Below are positions 488 to 19,117 of a DNA stretch of 40,000 bases, in pieces. The position numbers were made by a program, and so were the translations under genes. The notes under the pieces were generated by a model. That model ran no database searches and had not been told where the DNA came from. It saw nothing but the letters and a program-made list of their open reading frames with translations. Position 1 is the stretch's first letter. Every line of letters starts with the position of its first letter. Source of the DNA: Paenibacillus algorifonticola. GTDB lineage: Bacteria > Bacillota > Bacilli > Paenibacillales > Paenibacillaceae. The stretch lies in NCBI RefSeq assembly GCF_050481745.1, contig NZ_JBCNGR010000013.1, positions 81,214 to 121,213 on the forward strand, in the 5' to 3' direction.

Positions 488-491
488 TCTA

Positions 492-1382
492 TCACATCCT
501 CTTCCATGTAATTTCTGAAAATCCACTGAGAACCCCTGAAGCTTCAGGGAAAAGGAACATATCTGCATCTGATTTTCTTAGCAATTCTATTACTCCTCCT
601 TCCTGCAAACGATACCATGCAAAAGCAGTTGATGATGAGAGCAAAAGTGGCTCTGGATTGTCTATCGAGTACTTCTCACTTAACGCTTTGCGAGCCCATC
701 CATTCTCAAATAATGGACTGAGCGAGGCAAGTTCTGATTGAATATCTGAATATCTTAACGTGTCCTTACCTACGAACAGACCTGGCAACAACTTACTTAA
801 ATGGTTGGTCGGATCCACAACCAGTCTCTTTTGCCTATTAATCGTTAACGTCCAAGTAAATCCAAGATAATTCGCCCAATACTCAAACTGTTCAAAACGT
901 GTCTTGTTTTTGCAACCTAATCGGTTGGAATCCGTTTGCTCGTCGAGAGCCAATGCTATTTGTTCCCAGGTCATTGGTGCATATGCATCTTGACTATAGA
1001 ACCACGATATAAGCAAGACCAGATCATGATTCTCATCGTTATGAAGGTCGAAAATACGACGAGTAATTGCATTCACAAGAAAATCATCCCACTCTGCTCC
1101 ATCCAACGGTACAACATCCTCTGCCAAATACAGCATGCTGCCCTCTTCCACAACAACACCCATTTTCACCATTTCATTAATCACTTTCCGAATTCGGTTT
1201 CGATGAGATACCTCCGATGAAACTTCGTTGTCCTCTTCATCCCTCACATCCCCCGCAACAGATAATGGGGATAACATTTCTTCCAATTCGCTTCGCTCAA
1301 TCGGTGAACCAAGGTGTGCGAGTAATCGCCATGTTCCACGAACTCGACTCGGATTTGCTAACGGTTCGTTTAGTACACTCAC
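492..1382 (-). CDS. Hypothetical 296-aa protein, possible winged-helix N-terminus; partner of the downstream P-loop ATPase (DpdG-like position, unverified)
   Basis: GTG start at 1382 overlaps the upstream stop (GTGA) and has SD GGAGG 7 nt upstream. I can name no catalytic motif. There is distant by-eye similarity to the 258-aa ORF at 13828..14604 (FEYWANYLGF vs MECWGLG; RLQEGGVIELLRKSDAD vs ALHQEGELKLSYMQD). Confidence 0.6.
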   Translation of the reverse strand: MSVLNEPLANPSRVRGTWRLLAHLGSPIERSELEEMLSPLSVAGDVRDEEDNEVSSEVSHRNRIRKVINEMVKMGVVVEEGSMLYLAEDVVPLDGAEWDDFLVNAITRRIFDLHNDENHDLVLLISWFYSQDAYAPMTWEQIALALDEQTDSNRLGCKNKTRFEQFEYWANYLGFTWTLTINRQKRLVVDPTNHLSKLLPGLFVGKDTLRYSDIQSELASLSPLFENGWARKALSEKYSIDNPEPLLLSSSTAFAWYRLQEGGVIELLRKSDADMFLFPEASGVLSGFSEITWKRM

Positions 1383-3904: not shown

Positions 3905-6900
3905 CGTAGTCTCCACGAAGCTCACTTCCCGATAATATTATAAAACCAACTGAATCCAAACGAACATGCGGCTTCTTAATGCCAGCCTGCATTGCTTGAT
4001 GTAAATCAGATTCGAAAGCCAAATCAATACGGTCGAATTGTCCATGAATTTGCTGCGTTTTGGCTCTTAACGCCAATTGCTGAAATTGTCGGTTTAATTC
4101 TTGGCGCATCGACTGCAGTGCTTCCTCACATGCCGTGACTACAGATGCATCTTGCATCAAAAGTCGTTCCGAACTTTCACGGGCACAGGCGCACGAGGTA
4201 TGCCACTGGTCAGGCGAGATAAATTCATCTATTACATTTAATCGTTCTTTGGTTAAATTCGTATCGTTACCAAAATCGCTTAATTTCTCAAACGGTGTTT
4301 TCAAGGCTTCTATAACATTGGAGTCATTCACCAGACTACCGCTTGGTGTTACGTTAACTGTGTATATAAAGGGCGGAAAAAACCTATCCAGTTTTCTTTG
4401 CAAAGCTTTTCTATTATATGCTTTACCGTCTATGGAAGAATAGATTGTTTCTGCTGCGGAGACGTTACCTTCGATGATATAATTGAAGCTAAACCCGAAC
4501 CACTCGAAACCTTTCTTGGGATTCCATCCCTTTACTTTGCGCCAAAATGCAAAGGTTCGCCCACGATCATCCCACTTTATGTCATCATCCAGCATTTGAA
4601 TAAAAGGATCTCCAATACGATATATTCGACAATTTTCTTGGGAGGCTGCCGTCATCCGATCATAACTGCCATACCTACTATTAATTTTCGCCATTGCAAT
4701 TGAAGTAGAGATAGGCAATAATGTTTGGCGAGTTGGGGAGTAAGTTAATTCCCCTGATTGTGCATTGGATGATTTACAAGCAAACTTCAGTGCATTAAGA
4801 ACCCACGCCTCCGTGTTCTTTTGAATACGTGCATGATCAGATTCATATGCCACCAAATTTCGAACATATCCATGCACATCGTCATAGCTCGAATCCATTT
4901 CGTCCAGTGCATTTTGTTCCTCTACTTGAATCCTTTCCTCCTCTAGGCGATCTGCGAAAGACTCCCTTACATAATGAATAAAACTTTGAGCACCCTCAGC
5001 ATAAAAGCGACCATAAATTTCTGGAAGGATTCGGTCGATCAGAAATTGCAATGACGAAATGGAGTTTTGAAACACCTTAAGTCCTTCATTCAAGAATATA
5101 TACCAAGCCTCAATCAATGATGGATGATCTGGTCCGGTGAATACATGGGTAGAAAACATTCGAGTACGTCCTAAACGATCTACACGACCTATTCTTTGCT
5201 CCATGCGGCCGGGTTGTGTAAGCAAATCAAAATGTACAATCATATCCGCAAATTGCAAATTGCGTCCTAACTCTCCTGAAGGATCGCAAACCAGTACCCA
5301 ACACTGCTCATTGTATCTAAAACGCTCAATTTCTTGTTCCACTTGGACATCGCTCAATGTTTTGAGATATGGGGCGATTGCCTCAGCTTTGTATACAGAT
5401 CTTAGATGATTAACGATGAAATTTGCCGTAGCATAGTGTCCCGCAAAAACAACAATTTTAGGTGACGTCTTTTTCTTTTTACGTGTCTGTTCCGTAACCG
5501 TATCAATGACCATGACAAGGTGATCCAACCTGTCCTCTTCTTCGGAAGAACAATCAACTGTGTGGAGCAATGACTCAAGTAACTCTCGTTCACCTGAAAA
5601 TAATGGTGTCTCGCGCAATAGTTCGGCCAATTCCGTATTGTAAAGTTCCTTGAATGAGTTGCTTATCTCTCCAGACAATCGCGCCTCTAGTACGTGCCGG
5701 AATACAGGAAGTGCAGAATTCGATAACTCCAATAAATAAAAAAATAACCTTTGATACTTAGTTGAGTGGGAAAATCCATATTCCTGCCATTCTTCCCTTT
5801 CTAAGGCCCACGACGTTTCACGCCATTCATCCATTAAATCCTGAACGGAGGCAGTTCGATTGTCAAAATCGTATTCCTCAGATACTGAGAGTTCACCGCG
5901 TTCAAGATCACGTCCGTACCTAAAAAGTTGTTTTACCGTATCACGACGATTTCGCAACATTCTCCGGTGCAGTCGGTACGTTTCCGTCAAATGATTCCTA
6001 ATAGTCCGTACGGCTGTTATACGTTTTTCTTCATCATTTTTATCCAGAGCATCTAGTAAATACTCCACATTACTGGTCATCAAAACGTCATCTGACACAA
6101 GTTCCAGCAATTTTTCAGCAGATCTACGTAAAAGAAGTGGCTTCGCATTCTCTCGTAAGGTGAACAATATTCTCCCCACATGTTGGCGAATAGAAATAAG
6201 TTTTTGAAATCTTTCAATCTCATCAAGATGGTAATGATCTGGATCTAATAAGTGAAGCATAGCTAGGAAATCTTGTTCATTATGAAGTACCGGTGTTGCA
6301 GATAACAACAACAACCCACGAGCTTGATTTGTTAACTTTTCGACCAAGTGATACAGTTCGCGCTCCTCTTCTATAAGACTCGATGCCTTCGCAGCAATGA
6401 TATGTGCTTCATCAATGATAATTAAATCCCAATCTTTCTCTTGCAGCAAGTTACTACTTGAAGACAACCTTTCAGTTGCACACCATGTAATCTGATCGGT
6501 GAATTCGTACAAATTACATTTGCTATGTAATTCTGATTGCCACTGAATCTGTAAAAATAAAGGAACCACAATGAGAACCGATGAGTTTGGATAATCCAAT
6601 AAAAACTGACGAATTATTACTCCTGCTTCAATCGTCTTTCCGAGACCCACCTCGTCTGCAAGCAAATATCGGGGGACTGGGTCTTCTGATACTCTCCGAA
6701 TAACTTCCACTTGATGGGGATACAGCGAAACAGAAGATGAAAGAAGACCTTCCATCCCACGTCCTACTTTTCGCTGATTCATCATTTCTTTTACAAAAAG
6801 GGTACGTTTACGATTAAAAAAAGCTGTCTCATGTCCCTTGTTGATGATAATATCCATGGGATCTTCAATAGGAAGTGAGCAACGGACAAACAAATTTTCT

Positions 6901-7319
6901 GAGTCAATGTAATTTGAATAGGAGTCAGGAAAGTCAACTTGATAATCTGTTCCATCAAATCCTGTGATACGGCCTATCATCCAGTGCTTTTTATTCGATT
7001 CCCAATAATAGCAACGTGTTTGAATGTCCGGCTTAACAAGTTGTATCTGGCTCAGTCCGATATTTAACCTTTTCCTATTTTCAATGGAAATGAAATACTC
7101 TACAGTTACCATTTCTTCAAACTGATCAATCACTTTTCCTATACCCATATTGTTTAGAGCGATAATGAATCTTCCAATTACATTTTCCATTAGAATAGTC
7201 CTATCCATTCCGAATTTATTGAATGCTATAATAAAAAAATTATCTCCAGAACATTTCAAGTGGTAATCCTTTCTATAAATGTTACCATAAAACCTAAGTA
7301 TAATCTTGCCAATATTCAA
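3897..7319 (-). CDS. SNF2/RapA-like helicase-ATPase with an extra ~450-aa C-terminal region
   Basis: Motifs: LLADEVGLGKTIEAG (I), IIIDEAHIIAA (II, DEAH), LLLSATPVLHNEQDF (III), GELGRNLQFADMIVHFDL and QRIGRVDRLGR (V/VI). The true start is probably an internal Met (ATG 7208 or 7190, MENVIGRF...). That would leave room for a divergent promoter region shared with the plus-strand MBL gene. Confidence 0.85.
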   Translation of the reverse strand: MNIGKIILRFYGNIYRKDYHLKCSGDNFFIIAFNKFGMDRTILMENVIGRFIIALNNMGIGKVIDQFEEMVTVEYFISIENRKRLNIGLSQIQLVKPDIQTRCYYWESNKKHWMIGRITGFDGTDYQVDFPDSYSNYIDSENLFVRCSLPIEDPMDIIINKGHETAFFNRKRTLFVKEMMNQRKVGRGMEGLLSSSVSLYPHQVEVIRRVSEDPVPRYLLADEVGLGKTIEAGVIIRQFLLDYPNSSVLIVVPLFLQIQWQSELHSKCNLYEFTDQITWCATERLSSSSNLLQEKDWDLIIIDEAHIIAAKASSLIEEERELYHLVEKLTNQARGLLLLSATPVLHNEQDFLAMLHLLDPDHYHLDEIERFQKLISIRQHVGRILFTLRENAKPLLLRRSAEKLLELVSDDVLMTSNVEYLLDALDKNDEEKRITAVRTIRNHLTETYRLHRRMLRNRRDTVKQLFRYGRDLERGELSVSEEYDFDNRTASVQDLMDEWRETSWALEREEWQEYGFSHSTKYQRLFFYLLELSNSALPVFRHVLEARLSGEISNSFKELYNTELAELLRETPLFSGERELLESLLHTVDCSSEEEDRLDHLVMVIDTVTEQTRKKKKTSPKIVVFAGHYATANFIVNHLRSVYKAEAIAPYLKTLSDVQVEQEIERFRYNEQCWVLVCDPSGELGRNLQFADMIVHFDLLTQPGRMEQRIGRVDRLGRTRMFSTHVFTGPDHPSLIEAWYIFLNEGLKVFQNSISSLQFLIDRILPEIYGRFYAEGAQSFIHYVRESFADRLEEERIQVEEQNALDEMDSSYDDVHGYVRNLVAYESDHARIQKNTEAWVLNALKFACKSSNAQSGELTYSPTRQTLLPISTSIAMAKINSRYGSYDRMTAASQENCRIYRIGDPFIQMLDDDIKWDDRGRTFAFWRKVKGWNPKKGFEWFGFSFNYIIEGNVSAAETIYSSIDGKAYNRKALQRKLDRFFPPFIYTVNVTPSGSLVNDSNVIEALKTPFEKLSDFGNDTNLTKERLNVIDEFISPDQWHTSCACARESSERLLMQDASVVTACEEALQSMRQELNRQFQQLALRAKTQQIHGQFDRIDLAFESDLHQAMQAGIKKPHVRLDSVGFIILSGSELRGDYDE

Positions 7320-8708: not shown

Positions 8709-9443
8709 TCAAACCCCTCGCTTGTTCCCCCACAACAAAGTGTGTAACTGCGGGAGAACTTTAACCTGTTTCAACTCCGATGATACCATGACTTGATTAA
8801 TCAACCACTCATACCTCTCTAGTAAAGCAAATACCAAACTTTCTCTATCAACTGTCGTTACATCGCTATTTCCGACCTGCAAAACCAGTCTCATGTGAGG
8901 ATAGCGCTTATGAACTTTTATAGCATACTGAAGATCATCTTCGTCAAAAATGACTACTTTAATACATATTTCATTCGGACTATTATTCAAGTTCGTGATA
9001 ACCCCATCTAATCTATCCCAATCGGTTATCATTCCTGAACTTGGTGGTTTTGGGGAAACCGTCAAGTCGTCAATATCCGCCATCCAATCTTGCCATCTGC
9101 TTCCTTGTGTTTCTAACCCAACTCGAATCCCCTTATCATGAAGCAAATCGACCAAATATCCAATATTCTTTATAATTGCTGGATTACCGCCAGAAATTGT
9201 TACATGCTCGAACGTGGTTCCACCAAGAGAATTCAATTCATCGTAAATCGCTTGAGGAGACAATTGTTTAATTTCATTCTTTGCAGAACCATCCCATGTA
9301 AAGGATGAGTCACACCATGAACAGGAATAGTCACAACCAGCTGTCCGAACAAACATCGTTTTTTGCCCGATTACCAGGCCTTCCCCCTGAACAGTTGGCC
9401 CGAATATTTCTAAAACCGGGATAGGATTTTCTTTGTGAGTCAA
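8709..9443 (-). CDS. queE: 7-carboxy-7-deazaguanine synthase QueE (Bacillus-type radical SAM)
   Basis: Near-colinear with B. subtilis QueE as I recall it: PVLEIFGPTVQGEGLVIGQKTMFVRTAGCDYSCSWCDSSFTWDG ... VLPQLHTLLWGNKRGV. I prefer TTG 9443 (SD GGGAGTGGA 7 nt upstream, TTGA overlap with the queD stop). The ORF-track alternative is GTG 9455. Confidence 0.93.
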   Translation of the reverse strand: MTHKENPIPVLEIFGPTVQGEGLVIGQKTMFVRTAGCDYSCSWCDSSFTWDGSAKNEIKQLSPQAIYDELNSLGGTTFEHVTISGGNPAIIKNIGYLVDLLHDKGIRVGLETQGSRWQDWMADIDDLTVSPKPPSSGMITDWDRLDGVITNLNNSPNEICIKVVIFDEDDLQYAIKVHKRYPHMRLVLQVGNSDVTTVDRESLVFALLERYEWLINQVMVSSELKQVKVLPQLHTLLWGNKRGV

Positions 9444-9931
9444 TCTGCCATCCACTCCCGTCTTGCTTCAGCATAGCTGGTTGGCGTTTCGAATAACCGG
9501 ACAAACTCAGTTTTTGCGTCCACTTCTTTTGATGAGTATTTGTCCGTACTTAGCGCCGCTTCCATCTGCTCATACAGCCAAACAACTATGTTTTCCGCAG
9601 TCGTGTTCATTAATGGCAATGTTTCATTTAGATATCTGTGGTCTAAGAATGGTTCAATTTGCTCACGCCAAATTGTTTTCAGCATGCTAAAGTCTATCGT
9701 CAGGCCAATCTCATTTGTATAGCCACTTATTCCAAAAACCACCTTATAGGTATGGCCATGTAGATTTTTGCATTTGCCTTCATAAGCATGTAAATGATGC
9801 GCGGCGTCAAAAGTGAATTCCTTACTGACCAATACTCTGCGTTGATGATATTTTAACTGATCTTCAGTAATATCCTTTCCATACTTTTGCAATGCATCTA
9901 CAATGACAAATTGCCCTGGTACTTTATTCAT
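9440..9931 (-). CDS. queD: 6-carboxy-5,6,7,8-tetrahydropterin synthase QueD
   Basis: [28 protein letters not shown] matches the QueD/PTPS signature. ATG 9931 overlaps the queC stop (ATGA). The ORF-track start at 10003 lies inside queC and is an artefactual extension. Confidence 0.9.
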
Positions 9932-10599
9932 GACATTTGCTCCGAATTTCTTGTCTGTAAAAAAGTATCCAGACCAGCTTTTCTCAACTGACAAGCTGGA
10001 CAATTACCACAACCGTCACCGATAACCCCGTTATAGCAGGTTAATGTCTTCTTACGTACAAATTCAAAAGCACCTAACTGATCAGCCATCTCCCACGTCT
10101 CTGCTTTATTAATCCACATCAACGGAGTATGAATGATAAAGTTATGATCCATCGCTAAATTTAACGTTACATTTAGAGATTTAACGAAATCATCCCTACA
10201 GTCGGGATAGCCACTGAAATCTGTTTCGCATACACCTGTTACAATATGTCGAGCTCCTACTCCTTTAGCAAAGACCGCCGCGAAACTTAAAAATAAGTGG
10301 TTTCGTCCTTCTACAAATGTACTTGGAAGTTCGCCATCATTATGAACAATTTCTACGTCATCACGCGTCAACGCATTTTGAGTTAATTGGCCGAGTAGGC
10401 TCATATCAAGTAAAGTCCATTTTACTCCTAATTCATAAGCAATTTGCTTAGCACATTCAATTTCTAATGCATGCCTTTGACCATAATTGAAGGTGACAGC
10501 CTCCACCTCATCAAATTGCTTCATTGCCCAAAACAAACAAGTTGTACTATCTTGACCGCCACTAAATACAACAACGGCTTTTTTGTTTTTTTTATCCAT
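9928..10599 (-). CDS. queC: 7-cyano-7-deazaguanine (preQ0) synthase QueC
   Basis: [19 protein letters not shown] (PP-loop), [15 protein letters not shown], and the C-terminal zinc motif [16 protein letters not shown]. Colinear with B. subtilis QueC. Confidence 0.95.
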
Positions 10600-10667: not shown

Positions 10668-13600
10668 CTATTTATCGTCTCCAACAACTAATCTAATCTC
10701 TACAACATCAAACAAGTTGGGGAATTTTTCTTTAATCTCATCCAGCAGACGCTTCCATTGTATTGGAGGAAGTGTACTATATCCATTTTCGATAAGTAAT
10801 CGGATATGCCGTTTTATGGAGGGTCTAATTTGTGGGCTTTCGTTGATTTTTTCTAGTAGGTGATAGATACTTTCAACATCTTCACAATCAAAATCATTTC
10901 TGATTACTTGAAGAAGGTGCAATTTGGTCTGCTCATGTTGAAGTTTTCTTTCGATCCGATCTCTTAGTTCATAGAAATCTATAGATTGCCATTCAGCAAT
11001 TAAGGAACTTAATTCAGCACCAATGTGTTTCTTTTTTTTCAGACGATTTACACCATTCTCCAATCTAATCAGGAGTTTCTTTATATGCTCTAAATCCCCT
11101 AGCTTAATTTGAAGATCCAGCAGATACTTCACTAAATTTCGTGGAGTAAGAGCAAGGCAGTTTTTCAAACTTTCCAATTCCTGAATAATAATTATGAAGT
11201 TAGCTTTACCCGCCTCTAATTCAGACCAGTTTACTTCGTCCTTTTTATTGATTTTCGCTTCTTCTTGTTCATAATTTGTTTGCGCGCAACTCTCAGTGAG
11301 AAGACTTTCAACTTCAAGCATCATCTCGTCAAATTGTTTACTCAACTGTCTCATCTCACTAAATAAAATAGTAGCACTTTTATATTGAGCGGCGAGTGCT
11401 TGATCATCCAATTCTTGTTCCAGCAAAGTGTAAGCAACAAAGTCTTGTTGTGTAATACTCTTCTTCTCGCTAAAAGCTTTAATTTGTTCAGCAAGTTCTA
11501 TCAATTTCAAATTATTGGAGCCAAGTAAAAAAGGAATCATGTTCATCCTTTTTTCGAGTGACTGCTTAAAGCTATCTTGAAGTAGTTTAAAGTATTTATG
11601 GTAACTTTCTTTCAATTGGGATAGAAATACCCGTAGAGTAGTATCTCCAATTTGATAGTGTTCTAAGATTTTCGATGGCACAAGATTCATAAACCAATAA
11701 TCAAATTCTTCATTCGTCAAAACCGCTTTACTAGGCGGCTGAAAAAAGTTATCACGTAACAAGTACCAATCTGAATAACAATCCTCAAGAAGAGCTAATA
11801 ATTCTGTTCGGAATGGAGAATATTCAATTACATTTGAGGCCCAAGATGATTTGCTGTATATTTGAGCATTTTGAACCCAGTATTTCATCCCGTACACAAA
11901 TACAGGAAGATTCAACCCAAGAGCCTGTTCAAGAGAATTAAGCCATTCATCATGGATTGACTCTGCTTGATGTATCCATTTAGCAATTTCATATTCATTG
12001 GAATTTTTCTGAAACATCCTTACCTTTTCTGAATACTTCATGGTTTGAAAGTTGGCAATTTGAATAGCAATAAATCCTCTGCTGACGCTTATTGTAGACT
12101 CATCCTTGTTATTCTGGAGTGTAATCGGATACCTTGTTCGATTCACAACTTCATTTCGCTGAATGGATGATGAAGTTTTGGATGTGAATGAGCGGGACAT
12201 ATGAATTCCCTTTACAGCATCATGCACCAATGCAGCCACCCCCGATCTAACCGGCAATAATAATTCTTCATTTACATCTCTTCCTTCTACCCAATCTCTA
12301 ACCACTGCCTTTTCATTGAAGCCATTATTACTATCTTTTTTCGGCTCATCAAGTAATTGCTGCTCATCTCTTAAGCTACTTCCAACACTATTTAGTTTCA
12401 CAGTGATTTGATTATCCTTATATCCAAAGTACCTTAATACAGGTTCTGAAATTGTAATCTTCTCCGCTTCTTCAGAGGCATACCATTCTGCGAGAGTTTT
12501 GATAAAAACATCCGAATGCTCAGCGAACATCTCCCTCCTTATTATAGGAAGTATTCTACTAATATCTTTCTTACCTCTTAGAAAAAAGCGAATAACTTCT
12601 TTACTATTCAAAATCATGTAACGTAATTTCCCTTTTCCCATTGGAATTGCATCATACGTTCTCCTTAACATATGGCTATTAAATGGAAGCAACTGAACTT
12701 CAATATCATTTAATTTAGATTCAATCTCACTTGATTCCGTGGTAATACTTGAACATTGGTCGTAGTACGGACACTCAGGAGAGCATTTAAAGCCTTGTGT
12801 TGCTTTCAACTGTGTAAGGTACTTAGCCATATAAGGAATTACTTGTCCACGATCTAGGTTGAAAAAGTCTTTCCCTGATTCGTCAGATAGCCATAACTTT
12901 TTTACCCGGTCATTTATGGTGTCAAGATTTTGGATTCTTTGTGTAAGACTGAATCCTTTTTCTGTATCCTGAACCGCGCCAGGCGTTAGACCAATTACTA
13001 CATCCCAATTCCCCTCTTCTAATGTAATAAGTTGATCCAATATATTGGTTGCGTAAATATTAACCGATTGAACAAGATCGTCAATGAGAAGCAATGGACG
13101 GATACCCTTGCTTTTTATCTGCTGGGATAATTGTTTAAACAGGGTTCCAATGTCCCGTCCTTCAAACAGAAAATGGTCCAGTTTCCGAGAAAGTGTTTGT
13201 CGAAATGTTGCATACTCCAGGGGGATATTAACAGTCGTGTTAACAAGTAACGATTCGAATTGCTCACGATGTAGAACTTCTAGTGGTTTTTTGATTCTTC
13301 CTCGTTTAACTTGAGAAGTAAATTCTACAATATTCTTCTCAATTATTGATCTCAACAATAGTGCTGCTGGAACAATTTCCTCATCGGATTCTAGCGATTC
13401 GGCAAGTGCCGTCCAGACCATTTGGTTAACAAGCGTAATAGGCTTTTTGAGTAATAGCCCCCACTTATCTTCGTCAATACAAACATCTAAAGACAAATTT
13501 AATGCGTCTAAACATTTTTTGATTAGTGTCTGGGGGTTTAACTCTGTCCGTGAAATTCGTATCACCGGTCGTTCAGATACTTCCACTAACCATTTATCTT

Positions 13601-13859
13601 TTATCCAACGAAGCAGTTCAGATTTCCCTGATCCCGTCGAGCCAAATACTAAATAAACCCTGTTGCCATCGGAATCAACTTCTTTGAGTTCTTCCAGCAA
13701 TTCGCCTTCCGTAACCTCAGCGATCAGATGACTGTCATTAAATCTATGCATTACTTGAGGGAAATGGGTTTTTCTAAAATACTCAGGTGATTGGTCGTAA
13801 CGCTCGTCTGCAGTTCCTACTAAAAGTTTAAGCGAATTTTTGTTGAGACAAGGCATCAT
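10668..13859 (-). CDS. Large (1063 aa) P-loop NTPase with a long helical, coiled-coil-like C-terminal half
   Basis: Walker A is VFGSTGSGKSE (residues ~72-80) and Walker B-like is RPLLLIDDLVQ (~255-263). The start ATGATG at 13859 has SD GAGAGGGGA 10 nt upstream. It overlaps the upstream ORF by 32 nt. It is paralogous to the partial ORF at 1..487. Confidence 0.8.
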   Translation of the reverse strand: MMPCLNKNSLKLLVGTADERYDQSPEYFRKTHFPQVMHRFNDSHLIAEVTEGELLEELKEVDSDGNRVYLVFGSTGSGKSELLRWIKDKWLVEVSERPVIRISRTELNPQTLIKKCLDALNLSLDVCIDEDKWGLLLKKPITLVNQMVWTALAESLESDEEIVPAALLLRSIIEKNIVEFTSQVKRGRIKKPLEVLHREQFESLLVNTTVNIPLEYATFRQTLSRKLDHFLFEGRDIGTLFKQLSQQIKSKGIRPLLLIDDLVQSVNIYATNILDQLITLEEGNWDVVIGLTPGAVQDTEKGFSLTQRIQNLDTINDRVKKLWLSDESGKDFFNLDRGQVIPYMAKYLTQLKATQGFKCSPECPYYDQCSSITTESSEIESKLNDIEVQLLPFNSHMLRRTYDAIPMGKGKLRYMILNSKEVIRFFLRGKKDISRILPIIRREMFAEHSDVFIKTLAEWYASEEAEKITISEPVLRYFGYKDNQITVKLNSVGSSLRDEQQLLDEPKKDSNNGFNEKAVVRDWVEGRDVNEELLLPVRSGVAALVHDAVKGIHMSRSFTSKTSSSIQRNEVVNRTRYPITLQNNKDESTISVSRGFIAIQIANFQTMKYSEKVRMFQKNSNEYEIAKWIHQAESIHDEWLNSLEQALGLNLPVFVYGMKYWVQNAQIYSKSSWASNVIEYSPFRTELLALLEDCYSDWYLLRDNFFQPPSKAVLTNEEFDYWFMNLVPSKILEHYQIGDTTLRVFLSQLKESYHKYFKLLQDSFKQSLEKRMNMIPFLLGSNNLKLIELAEQIKAFSEKKSITQQDFVAYTLLEQELDDQALAAQYKSATILFSEMRQLSKQFDEMMLEVESLLTESCAQTNYEQEEAKINKKDEVNWSELEAGKANFIIIIQELESLKNCLALTPRNLVKYLLDLQIKLGDLEHIKKLLIRLENGVNRLKKKKHIGAELSSLIAEWQSIDFYELRDRIERKLQHEQTKLHLLQVIRNDFDCEDVESIYHLLEKINESPQIRPSIKRHIRLLIENGYSTLPPIQWKRLLDEIKEKFPNLFDVVEIRLVVGDDK

Positions 13860-14604
13860 TTAAATCACATCCCCTCTCTACCTTTATCCAATTAAATTCG
13901 TTTTTAGGTCCATATGATTTATAAGGTAAATCTTGCATGTAACTTAGTTTCAACTCTCCTTCTTGATGTAATGCCATTAAAGAAAAGATAACCCCTCTGT
14001 AGATGTTCCCTTCAGTTGTTAGGCATGGTATAACCGGATCAATTATCTTTTCACAAAATGGATGCAATCCTCCCTCCCATGTCTCATTCCTCTTAATGAT
14101 ACTTTTCATTAACGAAAGCTGTGGAAGTGCATAGAAGCCTGAGTAAATACGTCTACCCAATCCCCAGCATTCCATCATTCGCTTCCACGCATTCACTTTC
14201 TCTTGCCCAACTAGTGTTTTCTTTAATTGGCTATTGATTTGGTAGTGAATATTACTCAAAAACAATTTATCCGGCTTTACAAATAACTGTTCAAATAGGG
14301 AAGCAAATACTTTATCAAGTGAATCGCTAGGTATATTTTCAGAATTTGAAAGTTCCCTCAATTTTAAAAAAACCTCTTTGTTGCACCATGGCTTGTCCTG
14401 TAGTACAAAATATTGTGATTTGTCTTTATATATAAACTGTAAATCCTCTAATACGATCAAACTACATTCAATTAACGATGTGATGTCCCCGCTATCAACA
14501 TGCTGAAATCTTGTTTTTAACTTCTCTACATCCAGTCCAGGATTAATTCTTAAATTTTCATAAATCACTTCAATTTCCGGTCCGTAGCACATTTGAAACA
14601 ACAT
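13828..14604 (-). CDS. Hypothetical 258-aa protein; partner of the 1063-aa ATPase and distant paralogue of the ORF at 492..1382
   Basis: Strong SD AAGAGGAGGAG lies 5 nt before ATG 14604. It overlaps both neighbours, by 35 nt upstream and 32 nt downstream. No recognisable catalytic motif. Confidence 0.65.
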   Translation of the reverse strand: MLFQMCYGPEIEVIYENLRINPGLDVEKLKTRFQHVDSGDITSLIECSLIVLEDLQFIYKDKSQYFVLQDKPWCNKEVFLKLRELSNSENIPSDSLDKVFASLFEQLFVKPDKLFLSNIHYQINSQLKKTLVGQEKVNAWKRMMECWGLGRRIYSGFYALPQLSLMKSIIKRNETWEGGLHPFCEKIIDPVIPCLTTEGNIYRGVIFSLMALHQEGELKLSYMQDLPYKSYGPKNEFNWIKVERGCDLNDALSQQKFA

Positions 14605-15502
14605 GCTCGCTCCTCCTCTTATTATTTTCTAAAATATCGTTAAATGTTCTAAGTAAGTGGTAATAGTTATGGATTGATCTTAACTTCATATATTCTCTTG
14701 GAGATGGGACTAAGATCTGCTTTGCGTCATTTTCACATACAGGGCATTCACAATTAAGTGGATTTTCCAATCGTGGACTTGTGGGTTTAGCTCGCGATTC
14801 TGAGAGAAAAAAGGTTCTAAATGGTCTGCTATAGAACACTTGAAAGAACGCTGCCGCCATTGTTGGTCGTGTTGAATCAAATGAACTTACGCCAATATCA
14901 ACCATTGCACTAAGTTGGGGAATTCCTGTTACTCCAAATACATGCAGGTTTGAAGGCCCTACAACATCTGCTGCCCTTCTGATCATTTCAATTTGCTGCG
15001 TCTGATGTCTAAAAAGTAACGATCCAATTCCAAATTTCTTATACCCCATCTTGATCAACTCATAAGCTGAAAACTCAATACTAGCTTGGTCATAACCTTG
15101 AATGACTCCCATTGCTTGAACAGATTTCGGAAGATTATATTTATGAAAAATATTGAAATACTCATAAGCATTGAATAGCGTTCTTTCTATAGCCATGAAA
15201 CGTTCAGATAAAGAGGACTTATTTAACAGTGGTTCATCAAAATGAACCATTTGAACATTTGTTTTTTTTTCGCAATCTTCTAAGATTGAGAGCTGAATAT
15301 CAAAAACTTCTTTTAGTGGAGGCCTAATTTTTTGTTTAACATAAAACACTGATCCACAGTCTAGTATTAGCTTGCTAGGTTTATTTTTATACCTTTTTAC
15401 TCCTCCTCTATTGTCCGGTATAGCACTAATTAAAACCGGACATTGAGGAAAGTAATCACAAAATACTGCATCACTGTGTGACCAACCAATATAAAATTCC
15501 AT
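14570..15502 (-). CDS. Second, compact TGT-superfamily (DpdA-like) protein
   Basis: Matches to the 684-aa ORF: ILDCGSVFY (cf. MGDCGAFSY), GVIQGYD...MGYKKFGIGSL (cf. GIVQGWD...LGYDYIALGGL), GVSSFDSTRPT (cf. E. coli Tgt GVDMFDCVMPTR). The zinc motif is CECPVCEN...HNYYH. I prefer ATG 15502 (MEFYIGW..., SD GAAGGAG 8 nt upstream). The ORF-track start at 15580 has no usable SD and sits upstream of a candidate promoter. Confidence 0.75.
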   Translation of the reverse strand: MEFYIGWSHSDAVFCDYFPQCPVLISAIPDNRGGVKRYKNKPSKLILDCGSVFYVKQKIRPPLKEVFDIQLSILEDCEKKTNVQMVHFDEPLLNKSSLSERFMAIERTLFNAYEYFNIFHKYNLPKSVQAMGVIQGYDQASIEFSAYELIKMGYKKFGIGSLLFRHQTQQIEMIRRAADVVGPSNLHVFGVTGIPQLSAMVDIGVSSFDSTRPTMAAAFFQVFYSRPFRTFFLSESRAKPTSPRLENPLNCECPVCENDAKQILVPSPREYMKLRSIHNYYHLLRTFNDILENNKRRSEHVVSNVLRTGN

Positions 15503-15553
15503 ATCCTCATCTCCTTCTACAATAAAAATTACGTGATCATACGTGATATTTTT

Positions 15554-15562
15554 ATTGTAGCA
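15554..15562 (-). promoter_or_regulatory. Candidate internal promoter (extended -10 TGCTACAAT) for the TGT2 / ATPase / queCDE genes
   Basis: The minus strand reads TGCTACAAT just downstream of the terminator at 15593..15620. It is followed by a tandem ATCACGTA repeat on the minus strand (plus-strand TACGTGAT at 15530..15537 and 15540..15547), then the SD of TGT2. Confidence 0.4.
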
Positions 15563-15592
15563 CATCTCACCAGCACTCATCTACTCTTTGAA

Positions 15593-15620
15593 TAAAAAAA
15601 AGAAGCCATCAGGCTTCTTT
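15593..15620 (-). terminator. Rho-independent terminator at the end of the 264-aa ORF, inside the gene array
   Basis: On the minus strand: AAAGAAGCC-TGAT-GGCTTCTTT, a 9-bp stem and 4-nt loop that contains the TGA stop, followed by TTTTTTATT. Confidence 0.65.
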
Positions 15621-16403
15621 TATCCATTGTCTCCATATTTCATATATTAAACCGCGTTGTGCATCATTAAATTTAAAATTTCCTTTATTAACAAGTAGAA
15701 CTGGATTGTCTCTGTCAAAAAACTGACCTTTCCAATTCTCATAATTGAATTCCTCTGAGAGTAGTGGCCGCGGCAGATTGGTTAACTGAGAATCCTCAGT
15801 CCATTGCTCCATGAAATATCTAATATAGCAATACCAAGCAATGGCTGAGTCGGCAATGGATTTTTTTCGAAACTGTTTTCTCTGTGCTACAGGAAGATAC
15901 CCTAGTTCAGGATAATCACTCATTATAGAGTCAACATATTTAATCAAATCTTTAGCTAATCGAGGGCATAAACTACGTTCAACTCGATACCTTTGAAAAT
16001 CCTTAAAAATATCATACAGCGATCTAAAAGTCATTAATTTAGTGGAGTTGCTACTTATTTTCTCCCCCTTTTCAATCAACCGTTCGAAACGCTTATAAGA
16101 CATTAACTGATGCATACAGTAACTCGGAAAGTGTTGGGTTTCAGATACAATTAGAACGACGTATTCATCGCTCATACTGCCGCTGGGCAGTTTATAAGTA
16201 AACCGGGGATTCGTCACTTGTAACTCATTGTTTATTAAACTTAACACAGTATCATAATTTACTAAAATGACCTCTTCGCCAATTACATCAGACTGAATTA
16301 CAGGAAAACCCCAGTCTTTAATAACCCCTAATGGCAGTACTGTAAAATAAACGTCATCATTCTTTCTAGTTAAATTGCTTACGTTTTCAAAAGTAAAAAC
16401 CAT
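15609..16403 (-). CDS. Hypothetical 264-aa protein located between the two TGT-like genes
   Basis: SD GGGGGA lies 6 nt before ATG 16403. Codon usage is coherent and AT-rich, like the neighbours. I recognise no motif (no P-loop, no DGQHR). Confidence 0.6.
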   Translation of the reverse strand: MVFTFENVSNLTRKNDDVYFTVLPLGVIKDWGFPVIQSDVIGEEVILVNYDTVLSLINNELQVTNPRFTYKLPSGSMSDEYVVLIVSETQHFPSYCMHQLMSYKRFERLIEKGEKISSNSTKLMTFRSLYDIFKDFQRYRVERSLCPRLAKDLIKYVDSIMSDYPELGYLPVAQRKQFRKKSIADSAIAWYCYIRYFMEQWTEDSQLTNLPRPLLSEEFNYENWKGQFFDRDNPVLLVNKGNFKFNDAQRGLIYEIWRQWIKEA

Positions 16404-16457: not shown

Positions 16458-16460
16458 GCA

Positions 16461-18497
16461 CTATTTATCCCATCGTTTTTTTAATTCCTGGATCTGAGTG
16501 TAGTAGACATGGGTATTGTGAAACCCTCTCCGTCTGTTTCTATTATTACCCCTAAATACAATCACATCAATTCCAATTTCCCTGCATATATTACAACCAC
16601 ATTGTTCCCATGGACGTTCAGACAAAACCTCTCTATAAAGATCCTCATGAACTTCGCGCTTTTCCCCAAGTATTTTATCATACTCCAGTATAGCTTCAAG
16701 TGTGGGTTCTAGTTCTCTTGTTCCCGCACTGAAATTCCTAAGAGCACTTAATGCCTCCTGTTCAAGCCTTCTATACTCCGCAAACTCAATTTCATCACTA
16801 TTCTGCAACATTTTTTTCACTCTTCCAGATGTTTCTTTCGCTTCTGGGATTCTAATCGCTGTGTAATGTTTACCACTCAAGGAGTGATAATTATGCCCTG
16901 TTCCTAACCACGCTCTTCTCAACGGAGAAGAAGAGTCAAATGATGTTACACCTAATTTATGAAAAGACTCCATTGTTCTCACATCTCGCGCAACACCGAA
17001 CAAGTGCATCCGAAACGTAGGGCTTGGAATAATAGGAGATATTTCTTTTAGAATCTCATATATTTTCTCAGATTGTTCTCTAGCTAAACCACCTAGGGCA
17101 ATATAGTCATAACCTAATTCAATAAGATGCTCTACTGCTCTTCGGAAAGAAGGCGGGTCCCATCCTTGGACTATACCTATAGGATGGAACTGATAATTCC
17201 TGGTTTCTCTGTCCTCCCTATACATGCGTATAAATTCTTCCGCCATAGTAAGGGTTAGTTCATAACGCTGATTTCTAATATTTTCGTCTCTCTGGAAGGG
17301 ACCCACTATTAGATGGTCAATTGATACCCCATAATCAAAACCCAAGTTGTGGTAGTAATCCATAATCTCTTGGGTCGTATACGGCGGTACTTCTTTATCA
17401 ATATAACTAAAGGCACCACAATCCCCCATAATCGGGTATTCCCTAGGTAGTCGATAAAAATCATGTAACCCCATATCTTTTATCATCTGATTTTTTTGCT
17501 TAGTAGCATTATCAATATTAACTTTAGAAACAAGCAGTCCATCAAACTGAGGTCTTTCAAAAATCTGATGAGCGTACACATCATTTTCTAATGGATTTCT
17601 GTTTTTTTCTGAAAAATCAGCCATAAAATCATAGTGTGGATCGACTCTATCATCATTCTCTGGAAGATAAAATCTGGGTTCCTCAATGCAATTTATAGCT
17701 ACTAACTCATCTGGTACAGGAAACATTTCATTATAGAACTGTAATAAATCTTCTTTTTCAGATGCGTCACTAAATAACTCAGGTTGTTTTGTTGAAGCAA
17801 TTGAATCCAAAATAAACTCTCTAATCTGATCAGGATGATATTTTATTGTTCTCCACTTCTGTTCAATGTTATCTGTAATAATATTCCTCAGTAAGTGTGC
17901 AAAAAGATAACCTTTGATTCCTATCAAACCATATTTAAATGTTTTAGCTTCTTTTTCTCCAATAGTTAATACATGATAATCGTCCCAGTTTAGAATTCGA
18001 GAACGACTAGATGCTCCTGCGAAAAAGATCGCTTTTTGATTACTTTGCAACTTTAATGGCCACTCCACCGCTTGCAAATATTTGTCTCCAAGTAAGAAGA
18101 ATACAAGATCATAATCAGCAATTTTTTTTTGTAGATTTTGTGTGACTTCAAGTTGACGCGCCCACTTTTTTATAGTCTGCGAGTCCATTGTATTAAAAGT
18201 CACTTCATACGGTACAATTTGCGCATCTTCATTCAAAAGACCATAACCCGCTGAAATAATGCAAAGATCAATTTTCCCACCTTGTTTCCGGTATTCTTTA
18301 ATACCACTCATTAGCGCAAGGTGTTGACTCCCTGTATACATTTCATCAGCACGTTCTCTGAATTCCAACAATTCTGCTTCTCTTTGTTTTAATATTTTTT
18401 TATTCTTGAAATCATCAAATACAAGTTGATTTATTGGTTTATGTAACTTCTCTCCAGTACAAGAAGTGACAACAAGAATACGTTTTGACACAAACAT
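16461..18497 (-). CDS. DpdA-like TGT-superfamily transglycosylase fused to an N-terminal ~280-aa domain
   Basis: The C-terminal ~400 aa read RFYLPENDDRVDPHYDF..., MGDCGAFSY, GIVQGWD, GVTSFDSSSPLRRA, with zinc motif CGCNIC...GFHNTH. The N-terminal part reads ILVVTSCTGEK...CIISAGYGLLNEDAQIVPYEVTF. That pattern reminds me of YaaA/DUF328-type proteins ([21 protein letters not shown]), but this is weak recall. The start is probably ATG 18497 or GTG 18491, not the ORF-track GTG 18515. Confidence 0.8.
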   Translation of the reverse strand: MFVSKRILVVTSCTGEKLHKPINQLVFDDFKNKKILKQREAELLEFRERADEMYTGSQHLALMSGIKEYRKQGGKIDLCIISAGYGLLNEDAQIVPYEVTFNTMDSQTIKKWARQLEVTQNLQKKIADYDLVFFLLGDKYLQAVEWPLKLQSNQKAIFFAGASSRSRILNWDDYHVLTIGEKEAKTFKYGLIGIKGYLFAHLLRNIITDNIEQKWRTIKYHPDQIREFILDSIASTKQPELFSDASEKEDLLQFYNEMFPVPDELVAINCIEEPRFYLPENDDRVDPHYDFMADFSEKNRNPLENDVYAHQIFERPQFDGLLVSKVNIDNATKQKNQMIKDMGLHDFYRLPREYPIMGDCGAFSYIDKEVPPYTTQEIMDYYHNLGFDYGVSIDHLIVGPFQRDENIRNQRYELTLTMAEEFIRMYREDRETRNYQFHPIGIVQGWDPPSFRRAVEHLIELGYDYIALGGLAREQSEKIYEILKEISPIIPSPTFRMHLFGVARDVRTMESFHKLGVTSFDSSSPLRRAWLGTGHNYHSLSGKHYTAIRIPEAKETSGRVKKMLQNSDEIEFAEYRRLEQEALSALRNFSAGTRELEPTLEAILEYDKILGEKREVHEDLYREVLSERPWEQCGCNICREIGIDVIVFRGNNRNRRRGFHNTHVYYTQIQELKKRWDK

Positions 18498-18545: not shown

Positions 18546-19019
18546 CTAAACAGCTTTTGCATGTTTGAAAAAAACTTTTTTAACAATGATTGCAGCAAAT
18601 ATTTGAACCAATGTCTTAACAATGATTTGGCCAACAATCGCCAGAAATACAGCATTCCATGGAAGAATATTCGCTCCCAATGGGGATAGACCCACAACAA
18701 CAAAGATAATACTGTCTAGTATTCCTCCAACAATCCCACTGTATGCTACCCTCATATGAAAAGGTAATTTAAGGCGCGAATAGATTTCGGTATCAGTGGT
18801 CTCAGATACTGCAAACGTAATAATTGAGGCAAACACAATCCAAAGTGTGTCCCCTAGTAAATATGATGTTAATGCTGATAAAACCATGGCTAATAGAATA
18901 AGTAAATAGGTATTCCGCCGACCAACAAAATTTTGCACAAAATCACGGAATATAAATGTTGCCCCTATTATAAAAGTCCCTGCCGGGATAATAAAGGGTC
19001 CAATAAAAAACGGCGCCAC
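18546..19019 (-). CDS. VUT/YhhQ-family (queuosine-precursor) transporter; the 5' end lacks a canonical start and is possibly degraded
   Basis: Multi-TM protein with FRDF..., ...DSIIF... segments typical of DUF165/VUT. The frame stays open and hydrophobic for 20 more codons upstream (YLTIVAYLLAIVSSNVVTAG, cf. the E. coli YhhQ ITSSN segment as I recall it). That stretch has no ATG, GTG or TTG. See the finding for this region. Confidence 0.6.
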   Translation of the reverse strand: MAPFFIGPFIIPAGTFIIGATFIFRDFVQNFVGRRNTYLLILLAMVLSALTSYLLGDTLWIVFASIITFAVSETTDTEIYSRLKLPFHMRVAYSGIVGGILDSIIFVVVGLSPLGANILPWNAVFLAIVGQIIVKTLVQIFAAIIVKKVFFKHAKAV

Positions 19020-19117
19020 TCCTGCTGTTACAACATTTGATGAAACGATAGCCAGTAAATAAGCTACGATGGTTAAATATTTAATTTTACATCACCTCTT
19101 CAATTTGATCCATCACC

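What the first reader, a model, noticed from the sequence alone, without database searches (positions are those of the whole stretch)
16461..18497. DpdA-like transglycosylase fused to an unexplained ~280-aa N-terminal domain
The TGT-like barrel begins near residue 281 (RFYLPENDDRVDPHYDF, nt ~17675) and runs to the zinc motif CGCNIC...GFHNTH. Residues ~10-270 form a separate domain: ILVVTSCTGEK, CIISAGYGLLNEDAQIVPYEVTF, DLVFFLLGDKYL. The SAGYGLL...PYE segment reminds me of the YaaA/DUF328-like pattern SGLYGVLRP...PYRLE, but this is weak recall. In the characterised Salmonella system, DpdA needs a separate ATPase (DpdB), and a separate DpdC converts preQ0-DNA to ADG-DNA. A fused accessory domain might replace one of those partners, since no DndB/DGQHR-like ORF is visible.
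Basis: partly seen in the sequence, partly recalled or inferred. Interest (0 to 1): 0.75.

Follow-up and report, generated by a model that had tools for sequence, protein, structure and literature searches.

The report
DpdC–DpdA fusion enzyme in Dpd island
The "unexplained" front half of this DNA-modifying enzyme is a fused copy of DpdC, the next enzyme in the same 7-deazaguanine DNA-marking pathway; the fusion occurs in many bacteria, so it is a variant of a known defence system rather than a new kind of protein.

Summary
Window 16461-18497 (minus strand) encodes one uninterrupted 678-aa protein. Residues 275-671 are a bona fide DpdA, with both catalytic Asp residues and the zinc site intact.

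The N-terminal ~230 residues are not unexplained. They match Pfam DUF6884 above threshold and PADLOC DpdC models. They carry the CxxxK and (L/I)SAxxG signature motifs. Their model resembles E. coli YaaA most closely among solved structures. DUF6884 is the family of DpdC, which converts preQ0-DNA to ADG-DNA.

Gene order in the fusion (C then A) mirrors the canonical dpdC-dpdA-dpdB operon. No separate dpdC is present. The fusion recurs across at least eight phyla; 58 well-flanked fused loci were analysed.

It does not stand in for DpdB. Eight of 14 cyanobacterial fused loci keep a DGQHR protein. None of 25 Bacillota loci do.

In this island the next gene (orf264) is a cryptic homologue of the C-terminal half of DndB/DpdB and lacks the DGQHR domain. 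A second TGT paralogue and DpdG-like and DpdH-like genes follow.

Verdict: a new variant of a known system, of moderate interest.

The parts
16461..18497 (-). dpdC::dpdA fusion gene (678 aa). The start is the ATG at 18497, or possibly the GTG at 18491.
   Evidence: The ORF and its translation are. There are 120 full-length homologues.
17802..18497 (-). DpdC-like domain (DUF6884, YaaA-like fold), residues 1 to about 232.
   Evidence: PF21818 scores 51.1 bits against a cutoff of 30. PADLOC DpdC models give E 6e-12. hhalign against standalone DpdC gives probability 100%, E 3e-46, over residues 3-222. The AF2 model has pLDDT 89. The top Foldseek hit is YaaA 5caj.
18447..18461 (-). CxxxK motif (C13-T-G-E-K17), the putative DpdC active-site Cys and Lys.
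   Evidence: C13 and K17 are invariant in 69 of 70 fused sequences (the 70th has a gap) and in all 13 complete standalone DpdC sequences, including canonical Enterobacter and Sinorhizobium DpdC. The motif is described for DUF6884 in PMC11701544.
18240..18254 (-). (L/I)SAxxG motif (S82-A-G-Y-G86).
   Evidence: S82, A83 and G86 are conserved in fused and standalone DpdC. This is a signature motif of DUF6884.
17676..17801 (-). Variable interdomain linker, residues about 233-274.
   Evidence: Length and sequence vary in the alignment. pLDDT is 51-79 here.
16461..17675 (-). DpdA (DNA-guanine transglycosylase) domain, residues 275-678. Key residues: D359 and D521 (equivalent to Salmonella D95 and D256), D394 (D130), Q444 (H181), and zinc ligands C633, C635, C638 and H660.
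   Evidence: NF041059 DpdA equivalog scores 453 bits against a cutoff of 200. The residues are invariant columns. They were mapped to the Salmonella residues named in PMC10164549 through the Enterobacter DpdA sequence.
15609..16403 (-). orf264, a cryptic homologue of the C-terminal half of DndB/DpdB without the DGQHR domain. It occupies the position of dpdB in the canonical dpdC-A-B order.
   Evidence: Ten of 19 family members hit PF14072 below threshold (best 26.9 bits, E 3e-6; profile positions 158-316). hhalign against a DpdB alignment gives E 0.0024, probability 12%. It lies directly downstream of the fusion in all 20 loci that have it. A terminator-like hairpin sits at its end, 15598-15621.
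14570..15580 (-). TGT2, a second and shorter TGT-family paralogue (about 310 aa; the likely start is M27 at 15502).
   Evidence: PF01702 scores 58 bits. The DpdA model scores 74 bits, below its cutoff of 200. Both catalytic Asp residues and the CxCxxC...H zinc site are conserved in 27 of 27 orthologues.
13828..14604 (-). orf258, a DpdG-like protein.
   Evidence: hhalign against the DpdG family gives probability 92.6%, E 4.5e-7, over 209 columns.
10668..13859 (-). A 1063-aa P-loop NTPase, a distant DpdH-like paralogue.
   Evidence: NF041065 DpdH matches the N-terminal 100 residues only (28 bits). PADLOC DpdH gives E 2e-7. After iteration, the profile also finds the canonical DpdH proteins in other loci.
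8709..10599 (-). queC, queD and queE, the genes for preQ0 synthesis.
   Evidence: Pfam QueC scores 280 bits and PTPS 115 bits. TIGR03365 QueE scores 371 bits.
18546..19085 (-). VUT/YhhQ-family gene for a putative preQ0/queuosine-precursor transporter. It is probably full length, with an ATT start.
   Evidence: PF02592 scores 58 bits and TIGR00697 39 bits. The protein aligns from its first residue with the 180-aa P. polymyxa homologue. A Shine-Dalgarno-like AGAGGTGA lies upstream.
2..7319 (-). Restriction-side genes: dpdE (3897-7319), dpdF (1379-3925), dpdG (492-1382) and the N-terminus of dpdH (2-568, cut by the window edge).
   Evidence: NCBIfam scores: DpdE 931 bits, DpdF 858 bits, DpdG 114 bits.

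Best explanation
The gene encodes a natural DpdC-DpdA fusion. It is the DNA-marking enzyme of a Dpd (7-deazaguanine) restriction-modification island in a Paenibacillus genome.

Proposed pathway:
1. QueC, QueD and QueE, encoded in the island, make preQ0. A VUT/YhhQ-type transporter may also salvage it.
2. The C-terminal DpdA domain exchanges a guanine in DNA for preQ0. By homology to Salmonella DpdA, it uses D521 as nucleophile and D359 as general acid/base.
3. The N-terminal DpdC-like domain (YaaA-like fold) hydrates the nitrile of preQ0-DNA to the amide, giving dADG. This domain is tethered by a flexible linker of about 40 residues, so it would act close to the insertion site.

What is shown: domain identities, motif conservation, gene context and how often the fusion recurs. 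What is inferred: the chemistry. A plausible route is a C13 thioimidate intermediate assisted by K17 and the conserved Tyr residues.

The fusion replaces the standalone DpdC. It does not replace DpdB.
For: DpdA domain:
- NF041059 equivalog scores 453 bits against a cutoff of 200.
- All residues shown to be essential or substrate-binding in Salmonella DpdA (PMC10164549) are invariant.

N-terminal domain:
- PF21818 DUF6884 scores above its gathering threshold.
- PADLOC DpdC models hit at E 6e-12 to 1e-4.
- BLASTP against Enterobacter DpdC gives E 1e-7. That protein scores 528 bits on PADLOC DpdC.
- Profile-profile comparison with standalone DpdC proteins gives probability 100% over residues 3-222.
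- C13, K17, Y54, G56, S82, A83, G86, Y97 and Y140 are conserved in 69-70 of 70 fused sequences and in all 13 complete standalone sequences.
- The AF2 model has pLDDT 89, and its top PDB match is YaaA.

Context:
- The canonical order is dpdC-dpdA-dpdB (L007; 'dpdCAB' in PMC12707154). The fusion keeps that order.
- Some Chloroflexota loci have dpdC and dpdA overlapping by 4 nt (L074).
- Fused loci carry no additional dpdC.
- DpdC acts on preQ0-DNA independently of DpdA and DpdB (PMC10164549).
- The island encodes preQ0 synthesis and dpdE, dpdF, dpdG and dpdH.
Against: - No biochemical data exist for any fused protein.
- The N-domain matches DpdC profiles only over its first 110-155 residues. It lacks the roughly 100-residue C-terminal extension of canonical 315-aa DpdC.
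- By sequence it is as close to generic DUF6884 (PADLOC PDC-M57A, 51 bits) as to DpdC (43 bits).
- The fold match to YaaA is modest (TM 0.42-0.44).
- In the characterised Salmonella system DpdA needs the DpdB ATPase. No ATPase-competent DpdB is present here, so how insertion is driven is unexplained.
- Q444 replaces the His181 of Salmonella DpdA.
Confidence: 0.75

Rival explanations
1. The N-terminal domain is a functional replacement for DpdB. On this view it is a DNA-binding and base-flipping helper that makes preQ0 insertion independent of ATP, and the final mark is dPreQ0.
For: - No DGQHR protein occurs in any of 25 Bacillota fused loci. Only 9 of 58 fused loci overall have one.
- YaaA and DUF6884 proteins are DNA binders. 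A DUF6884 member (YfjM) is modelled flipping a base (PMC11701544).
- Phage DpdAs have been assigned no DpdB partner; the phage papers read attribute DpdB only to the bacterial enzyme. DpdB is reported as dispensable in some clusters (PMC12839542).
Against: - The domain is homologous to DpdC, not to DpdB. It keeps every residue that is universal in standalone DpdC.
- Fused genes coexist with a DndB-family DGQHR protein inside Dpd-like clusters in 8 of 14 cyanobacterial loci and in Hymenobacter.
- Fused loci never carry a second dpdC.
- A DpdB-C-terminal-like gene follows the fusion in this island.
Confidence: 0.12
2. The N-domain is a generic DUF6884 or YfjM-like DNA-lesion or abasic-site binding module. 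On this view it protects or processes the covalent or abasic intermediate of transglycosylation, and it has no nitrile chemistry.
For: - The best PADLOC and Pfam scores go to generic DUF6884 models.
- YfjM was recovered as an interactor of abasic and RNA-base lesions (PMC11701544).
- The canonical DpdC C-terminal extension is missing.
Against: - Close standalone relatives sit next to dpdA as the only DpdC candidate in split loci.
- The conserved residue set is identical to that of canonical DpdC.
- The absence of any other dpdC would leave the system without ADG.
Confidence: 0.1
3. The fusion is an artefact: two adjacent genes joined by a sequencing or assembly frameshift.
For: dpdC and dpdA are adjacent, or overlap by 4 nt, in some genomes.
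Against: - The identical protein is called on an independent Logan contig.
- At least 120 homologues, and 58 well-flanked loci from more than 8 phyla, have the same continuous ORF.
- There is no in-frame stop in the ORF.
Confidence: 0.01

Closest known systems
Salmonella enterica serovar Montevideo DpdA/DpdB/DpdC modification machinery (dpdCAB) of the Dpd restriction-modification system
   Same: - The same two enzymatic modules are present: a DpdA transglycosylase and a DpdC of DUF6884/YaaA-like type.
- The C-then-A order is the same.
- preQ0 supply genes are associated.
- dpdE, dpdF, dpdG and dpdH restriction-side genes are associated.
   Different: - DpdC and DpdA form one polypeptide.
- The DpdC part is shorter, about 230 aa instead of about 315.
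- No DGQHR ATPase DpdB is present. Only a 264-aa protein resembling the C-terminal half of DndB/DpdB follows.
- H181 is replaced by Gln.
- An extra module is present: TGT2, a DpdG-like protein and a DpdH-like protein.
DUF6884 (PF21818), e.g. Bacillus subtilis YfjM
   Same: - The Pfam match is above threshold.
- The CxxxK and (L/I)SAxxG motifs are present.
- The fold is related to YaaA.
   Different: YfjM is a standalone protein proposed to act in DNA repair. Here the domain is fused to DpdA inside a defence island.
E. coli YaaA (DUF328, PF03883; PDB 5caj)
   Same: It is the best structural match for the modelled N-domain (Foldseek E 1.4e-4, probability 1.0). YaaA has the DNA-binding 'cantaloupe' fold.
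   Different: - The sequence match is below the Pfam threshold (20 bits against 29.6).
- TM-score is only 0.42-0.44.
- YaaA is a peroxide-stress protein, not a DNA-modification enzyme.
Phage DpdA subfamilies (DpdA1 to DpdA4)
   Same: They are DNA transglycosylases that insert preQ0 and have no assigned DpdB partner.
   Different: The phage enzymes are single-domain and are not fused to DpdC. The window protein scores as the bacterial DpdA equivalog.

Membership tests
DpdA (bacterial DNA-guanine transglycosylase, NF041059) | Full-length match to the curated equivalog model above its cutoff. | tested here: met
   453 bits against a cutoff of 200; residues 275-671 cover model positions 2-405 of 406.
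DpdA (bacterial DNA-guanine transglycosylase, NF041059) | Catalytic Asp nucleophile and Asp general acid/base, the base-binding Asp, the Gly-Gly loop, and the zinc site CxCxxC...H. | tested here: met
   D521, D359, D394, G469-G470, and C633/C635/C638/H660 are invariant in 34 homologues. They align to the Enterobacter DpdA residues. The equivalent of H181 is Gln.
DpdA (bacterial DNA-guanine transglycosylase, NF041059) | Guanine-to-preQ0 exchange in double-stranded DNA. | not testable with these tools
   This needs an enzyme assay or nucleoside LC-MS.
DpdC (DUF6884 / YaaA-like) | Pfam DUF6884 match above the gathering threshold. | tested here: met
   51.1 bits against a cutoff of 30, residues 46-161.
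DpdC (DUF6884 / YaaA-like) | CxxxK and (L/I)SAxxG motifs, plus the residues universal in canonical DpdC. | tested here: met
   C13, K17, Y54, G56, S82, A83, G86, Y97 and Y140 are shared with Enterobacter and Sinorhizobium DpdC. The motifs are defined in PMC11701544.
DpdC (DUF6884 / YaaA-like) | Match to DpdC-specific profiles along the whole protein (canonical length about 300-320 aa). | tested here: not met
   PADLOC DpdC models align only with residues 3-155 (E 6e-12 to 1e-4). The canonical C-terminal extension of about 100 residues is absent. NCBIfam gave no DpdC hit.
DpdC (DUF6884 / YaaA-like) | YaaA-like fold. | tested here: met
   The AF2 model has pLDDT 89 and pTM 0.87. Its top PDB hit is 5caj_A, probability 1.0, with a modest TM of 0.42-0.44.
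DpdC (DUF6884 / YaaA-like) | Genomic coupling to dpdA as the only DpdC candidate. | tested here: met
   The domain is fused to DpdA. No other DpdC-like ORF occurs in the window or in other fused loci.
DpdC (DUF6884 / YaaA-like) | Conversion of preQ0-DNA to ADG-DNA. | not testable with these tools
   This needs biochemistry.
DpdB (DGQHR / DndB-family ParB-like ATPase) | A DGQHR-motif N-terminal domain and a Pfam DndB match above threshold, in an ORF of the island. | tested here: not met
   No window ORF matches. The DGQHR regular expression and a 16-sequence DpdB HMM found nothing in the window. The orf264 family reaches at most 26.9 bits against a cutoff of 29.1, and only over profile positions 158-316.
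YaaA / DUF328 (PF03883) | Pfam match above the gathering threshold. | tested here: not met
   20 bits against a cutoff of 29.6. The domain is related at superfamily level only.

The most novel reading that the evidence does not exclude
Fused DpdC-DpdA proteins may define a lineage of Dpd modification machinery that does not use the DGQHR ATPase DpdB.

In Bacillota the DpdB role would be split or replaced. One candidate is a DGQHR-less protein resembling the DpdB C-terminal half (orf264). The other is a conserved module of TGT2, a DpdG-like protein and a DpdH-like (BrxC-type) ATPase. That module is never found together with DpdB.

TGT2 keeps both catalytic Asp residues and the zinc site. It could be a second active DNA transglycosylase, a heterodimer partner of DpdA, or a reader of the mark.
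Probability: 0.25. Interest if true: 0.7.

Novelty: new variant of a known kind. Interest (0 to 1): 0.4.

Why it matters
The finding identifies the domain and removes the mystery. It is DpdC, so the island is predicted to write dADG with a single bifunctional polypeptide.

Three things make this useful to people working on 7-deazaguanine DNA modification:
1. A natural single-chain DpdC-DpdA is a convenient object for structural and mechanistic work on DpdC, whose chemistry is unknown. The residues conserved across all DpdC forms (C13, K17, Y54, S82, Y97, Y140) are ready-made mutagenesis targets.
2. Most fused loci lack the DpdB ATPase, which is essential in Salmonella. These systems therefore test whether ATP hydrolysis is a general requirement for inserting preQ0 into DNA.
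3. Surveys that require dpdA plus dpdB miss this whole class. GATOR-GC, for example, found only 11 Bacillota and 1 cyanobacterial island.

Tried and rejected
- NCBIfam scan of residues 1-280 at E up to 10 gave no DpdC hit and nothing meaningful.
- A PDB sequence search with the N-domain gave only chance hits.
- Literature: no paper in the searchable library mentions a DpdC-DpdA fusion. The two most relevant papers, Thiaville 2016 (PNAS) and the 2024 MMBR review, are not held. Prior description therefore cannot be excluded.
- The BREX-related BRC system with TGT plus a STAND NTPase (PMC12839542) was considered and rejected as a match. It has different components (HerA, PglZ, GNAT).
- orf264 is not related to DpdG or to orf258.
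- The unknown ORF of about 275 aa that follows the fused gene in cyanobacteria is not detectably related to orf264, DpdG or DpdB.
- My first DpdB profile, built from one seed, was too insensitive. It was replaced by a 16-sequence DGQHR profile.
- Rfam and tRNA scans of the window found nothing, so there is no preQ1 riboswitch.
Full report
**1. The observation**

Window 16461-18497 (minus strand) is one uninterrupted ORF of 678 aa from the ATG. A GTG six codons upstream would give 684 aa.

The ORF sits in a low-GC stretch, 34-41% between about 6 and 20 kb. The flank to the right has about 43-56% GC, mostly around 52%. The identical protein is encoded on an independent public contig with the same neighbours. 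The neighbouring orf264 is 100% identical to a Paenibacillus algorifonticola protein. The host is therefore a Paenibacillus.

**2. The C-terminal half is DpdA**

Residues 275-671 match the NCBIfam DpdA equivalog end to end, 453 bits against a cutoff of 200. They also match PADLOC DpdA at 423 bits.

Salmonella DpdA has functionally defined residues: D95, F99, D130, H181/G182, G206/G207 and D256 (PMC10164549). Their counterparts here are D359, F363, D394, Q444/G445, G469/G470 and D521. The zinc ligands are C633, C635, C638 and H660. All are invariant in 34 homologues, and they align with Enterobacter DpdA. The only change is His181 to Gln.

**3. The N-terminal domain is DpdC-like, not unexplained**

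Sequence evidence:
- Pfam DUF6884 (PF21818) matches residues 46-161 at 51 bits against a cutoff of 30.
- PADLOC DpdC models match residues 3-155 at E 6e-12 to 1e-4.

Literature:
- DpdC was assigned to DUF328 in 2016 (PMC5699537) and to DUF6884 in 2025 (bioRxiv 10.1101/2025.02.24.639861).
- Pfam describes DUF6884 as a distant relative of YaaA with CxxxK and LSAxxG motifs, found alone or combined with other domains (PMC11701544).

Comparison with a canonical cluster:
- A canonical dpd cluster on an Enterobacter cloacae plasmid has a 318-aa gene directly upstream of dpdA and dpdB. That gene scores 528 bits on PADLOC DpdC.
- It aligns with the window N-domain at BLASTP E 1e-7.
- It carries TTCTNGK, LSAGLGLL and VPYKATF.

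Profile and structure evidence:
- A profile-profile comparison of fused N-domains with standalone DpdC proteins gives 100% probability over residues 3-222.
- C13, K17, Y54, G56, S82, A83, G86, Y97 and Y140 are conserved in 69-70 of 70 fused sequences and in all 13 complete standalone sequences.
- An AF2 model of residues 1-272 is confident up to about residue 232 and poor across the linker (pLDDT 89, pTM 0.87).
- Its best PDB match is YaaA 5caj (probability 1.0, TM 0.42-0.44).

One defining feature is not met. The domain is about 230 aa and lacks the C-terminal extension of about 100 residues found in canonical DpdC.

**4. The fusion is real and common**

- All 120 best homologues are 618-923 aa, most of them 660-700. 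All but the top hit (P0001, which lists only PF21818) carry both Pfam domains. RefSeq simply names them DpdA.
- A scan of one genome per species returned 80 loci.
- Among loci with at least 12 kb of flank, 58 are fused. The phyla represented are Bacillota, Cyanobacteriota, Chloroflexota, Planctomycetota, Verrucomicrobiota, Myxococcota, Bacteroidota, Pseudomonadota, Deinococcota and Acidobacteriota.
- An exhaustive search with the N-domain alone found 808 clusters at 50% identity. Of the best 150, about 20 are at least 600 aa (fused). Most of the rest are standalone proteins of about 225-255 aa.
- The order within the fusion matches the canonical dpdC-dpdA-dpdB order ('dpdCAB', PMC12707154).
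- In some Chloroflexota loci dpdC and dpdA overlap by 4 nt. That is a plausible intermediate between split and fused forms.
- Fused loci contain no second dpdC.

**5. Does the fusion replace DpdB? No**

A 16-sequence DGQHR profile separates true DpdB-like proteins cleanly, at E below 1e-100, with nothing else above noise.

Results by group:

| Group | Fused loci | With DGQHR protein | With TGT2 module |
|---|---|---|---|
| Bacillota | 25 | 0 | 20 |
| Cyanobacteria | 14 | 8 | 0 |
| All other phyla, including Chloroflexota | 19 | 1 (Hymenobacter) | 1 |

In the cyanobacterial loci the DGQHR protein lies between the fused gene and dpdJ/dpdK-like genes. It scores 268-281 bits on Pfam DndB. The N-domain and DpdB therefore coexist, which argues against functional equivalence.

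Even so, 84% of fused loci lack DpdB within 10 kb. An earlier statement put DpdB in 92% of dpdA genomes (PMC5699537). A survey that required dpdAB found only 11 Bacillota and 1 cyanobacterial island.

**6. What follows the fusion in this island**

*orf264 (15609-16403).* It has no Pfam hit on its own. When all 19 family members are scanned, 10 give sub-threshold matches to DndB. The best is 26.9 bits, E 3e-6. All fall on profile positions about 158-316, matching protein residues about 87-243. A profile comparison with DpdB points to the same region, though weakly (E 0.0024, probability 12%). The first 90 or so residues are beta-rich in the AF2 model and carry no DGQHR motif. I read orf264 as a DpdB-like protein that has lost the ParB-like NTPase domain. 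I give this about 0.7 confidence. It sits where dpdB sits in dpdCAB. A good terminator-like hairpin closes it at 15598-15621.

*A conserved trio downstream:*
- TGT2 keeps both catalytic Asp residues and the zinc site in 27 of 27 orthologues.
- orf258 is DpdG-like (hhalign probability 92.6%).
- A 1063-aa P-loop NTPase is distantly DpdH-like.

The trio occurs in 20 of 25 Bacillota fused loci, in several Chloroflexota loci and in Calidithermus. It never occurs together with DpdB. This pattern is confounded by phylogeny.

Further downstream come queC, queD and queE, and then dpdE, dpdF, dpdG and the start of dpdH.

**7. Mechanism**

Shown:
- Two intact catalytic modules in one chain.
- A flexible linker between them.
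- A complete local supply of preQ0.
- Restriction-side dpd genes in the same island.

Inferred:
- DpdA inserts preQ0 at target guanines, and the tethered DpdC domain hydrates the nitrile to give dADG. DpdC is known to act on preQ0-DNA independently of DpdA and DpdB (PMC10164549).
- The Cys-Lys pair suggests a thioimidate route. This is my inference and is untested.
- How insertion proceeds without a DGQHR ATPase is open. The candidates are no requirement at all (no DpdB partner has been assigned to phage DpdAs), orf264, or the DpdH-like ATPase working with TGT2.

**8. Verdict**

The domain is a known family (DpdC/DUF6884), and the fusion is widespread and already annotated in databases.

I found no description of the fusion in the literature I could search. 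Two key papers were not available, so prior description cannot be ruled out.

The island is a new variant of the Dpd system: a fused DpdC-DpdA, a DGQHR-less DpdB-like gene, and an extra module of TGT2, a DpdG-like protein and a DpdH-like protein. Interest is moderate (0.4).

Noticed in passing
window 15609-16403 (-): orf264, directly downstream of the fusion, has no hit on its own. Ten of 19 family members match the C-terminal half of Pfam DndB below threshold (best 26.9 bits). It looks like a DpdB-like protein without the DGQHR domain. The family is narrow (Paenibacillus, Neobacillus, Peribacillus, Bacillus) and fast-evolving.
   Followed up: yes
window 14570-15580 (-): A second, shorter TGT-family gene (TGT2, about 310 aa). 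Both catalytic Asp residues and the zinc site are conserved in all 27 orthologues. The residue aligned to the base-binding Asp130 is Val or Cys, so substrate recognition may differ. Its role is unknown.
   Followed up: partly
window 10668-14604 (-): orf258 is a DpdG-like protein, and the 1063-aa NTPase is a distant DpdH-like paralogue. The island therefore has two DpdG/DpdH-type pairs; the canonical pair lies at 492-1382 and 2-568. The trio of TGT2, DpdG-like and DpdH-like genes is never found in a locus that has DpdB.
   Followed up: partly
window 18546-19085 (-): The VUT/YhhQ-family gene looks truncated when read from the listed GTG start (157 aa). It aligns from residue 1 with the 180-aa P. 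polymyxa homologue if translation starts at an ATT codon at 19085, which is preceded by AGAGGTGA. This is a probable non-canonical start.
   Followed up: yes
window 1-20000: GC content is mosaic. The block from dpdE to dpdH (1-6000) has 42-49% GC. The modification block (7000-20000) has 34-41%. The flanking chromosome has mostly about 52%. This suggests that modules of different origin were assembled into one island. The right boundary lies near 19.7-19.9 kb, and no tRNA is nearby.
   Followed up: no
L091 6851-8269 (Nostoc sp. PCC 7120 plasmid pCC7120beta): A 472-aa protein has the domains in reverse order: an N-terminal DpdA-like segment (PADLOC DpdA, 49 bits) and a C-terminal DUF6884 domain (143 bits). 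Similar genes occur on several Nostocales plasmids. This appears to be an independent TGT-DUF6884 fusion.
   Followed up: partly
L036 12119-12943 and 13 other mostly cyanobacterial ORFs: An unknown ORF of about 275 aa follows the fused dpdC-dpdA gene directly in most of these loci. It is not detectably related to orf264, DpdG or DpdB. A lineage-specific small partner gene seems to be a recurring feature.
   Followed up: partly
window 17166-17168 (residue Q444): The fused clade has Gln where Salmonella DpdA has His181, which contacts the base edge. Gln is invariant in all 34 fused homologues aligned. TGT2 orthologues also have Gln here (26 of 27).
   Followed up: no
window 7527-8504 (+): A 325-aa ORF on the opposite strand between queE and dpdE has no family match. 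It was found only in the window and its own contig, so it is probably cargo of unknown function.
   Followed up: no
window 16425-16451, 15598-15621, 8669-8698 (-): Terminator-like hairpins suggest three transcription units: fusion plus orf264; TGT2 through queE; and a hairpin without a strong T-run just after the fusion's stop codon. These are consensus matches only.
   Followed up: partly
L074 9962-11820 and L083 9980-11883 (Chloroflexota): Standalone dpdC and dpdA overlap by 4 nt, and a DGQHR gene lies about 2 kb upstream. This is a near-fused state, one indel away from the fusion architecture.
   Followed up: partly
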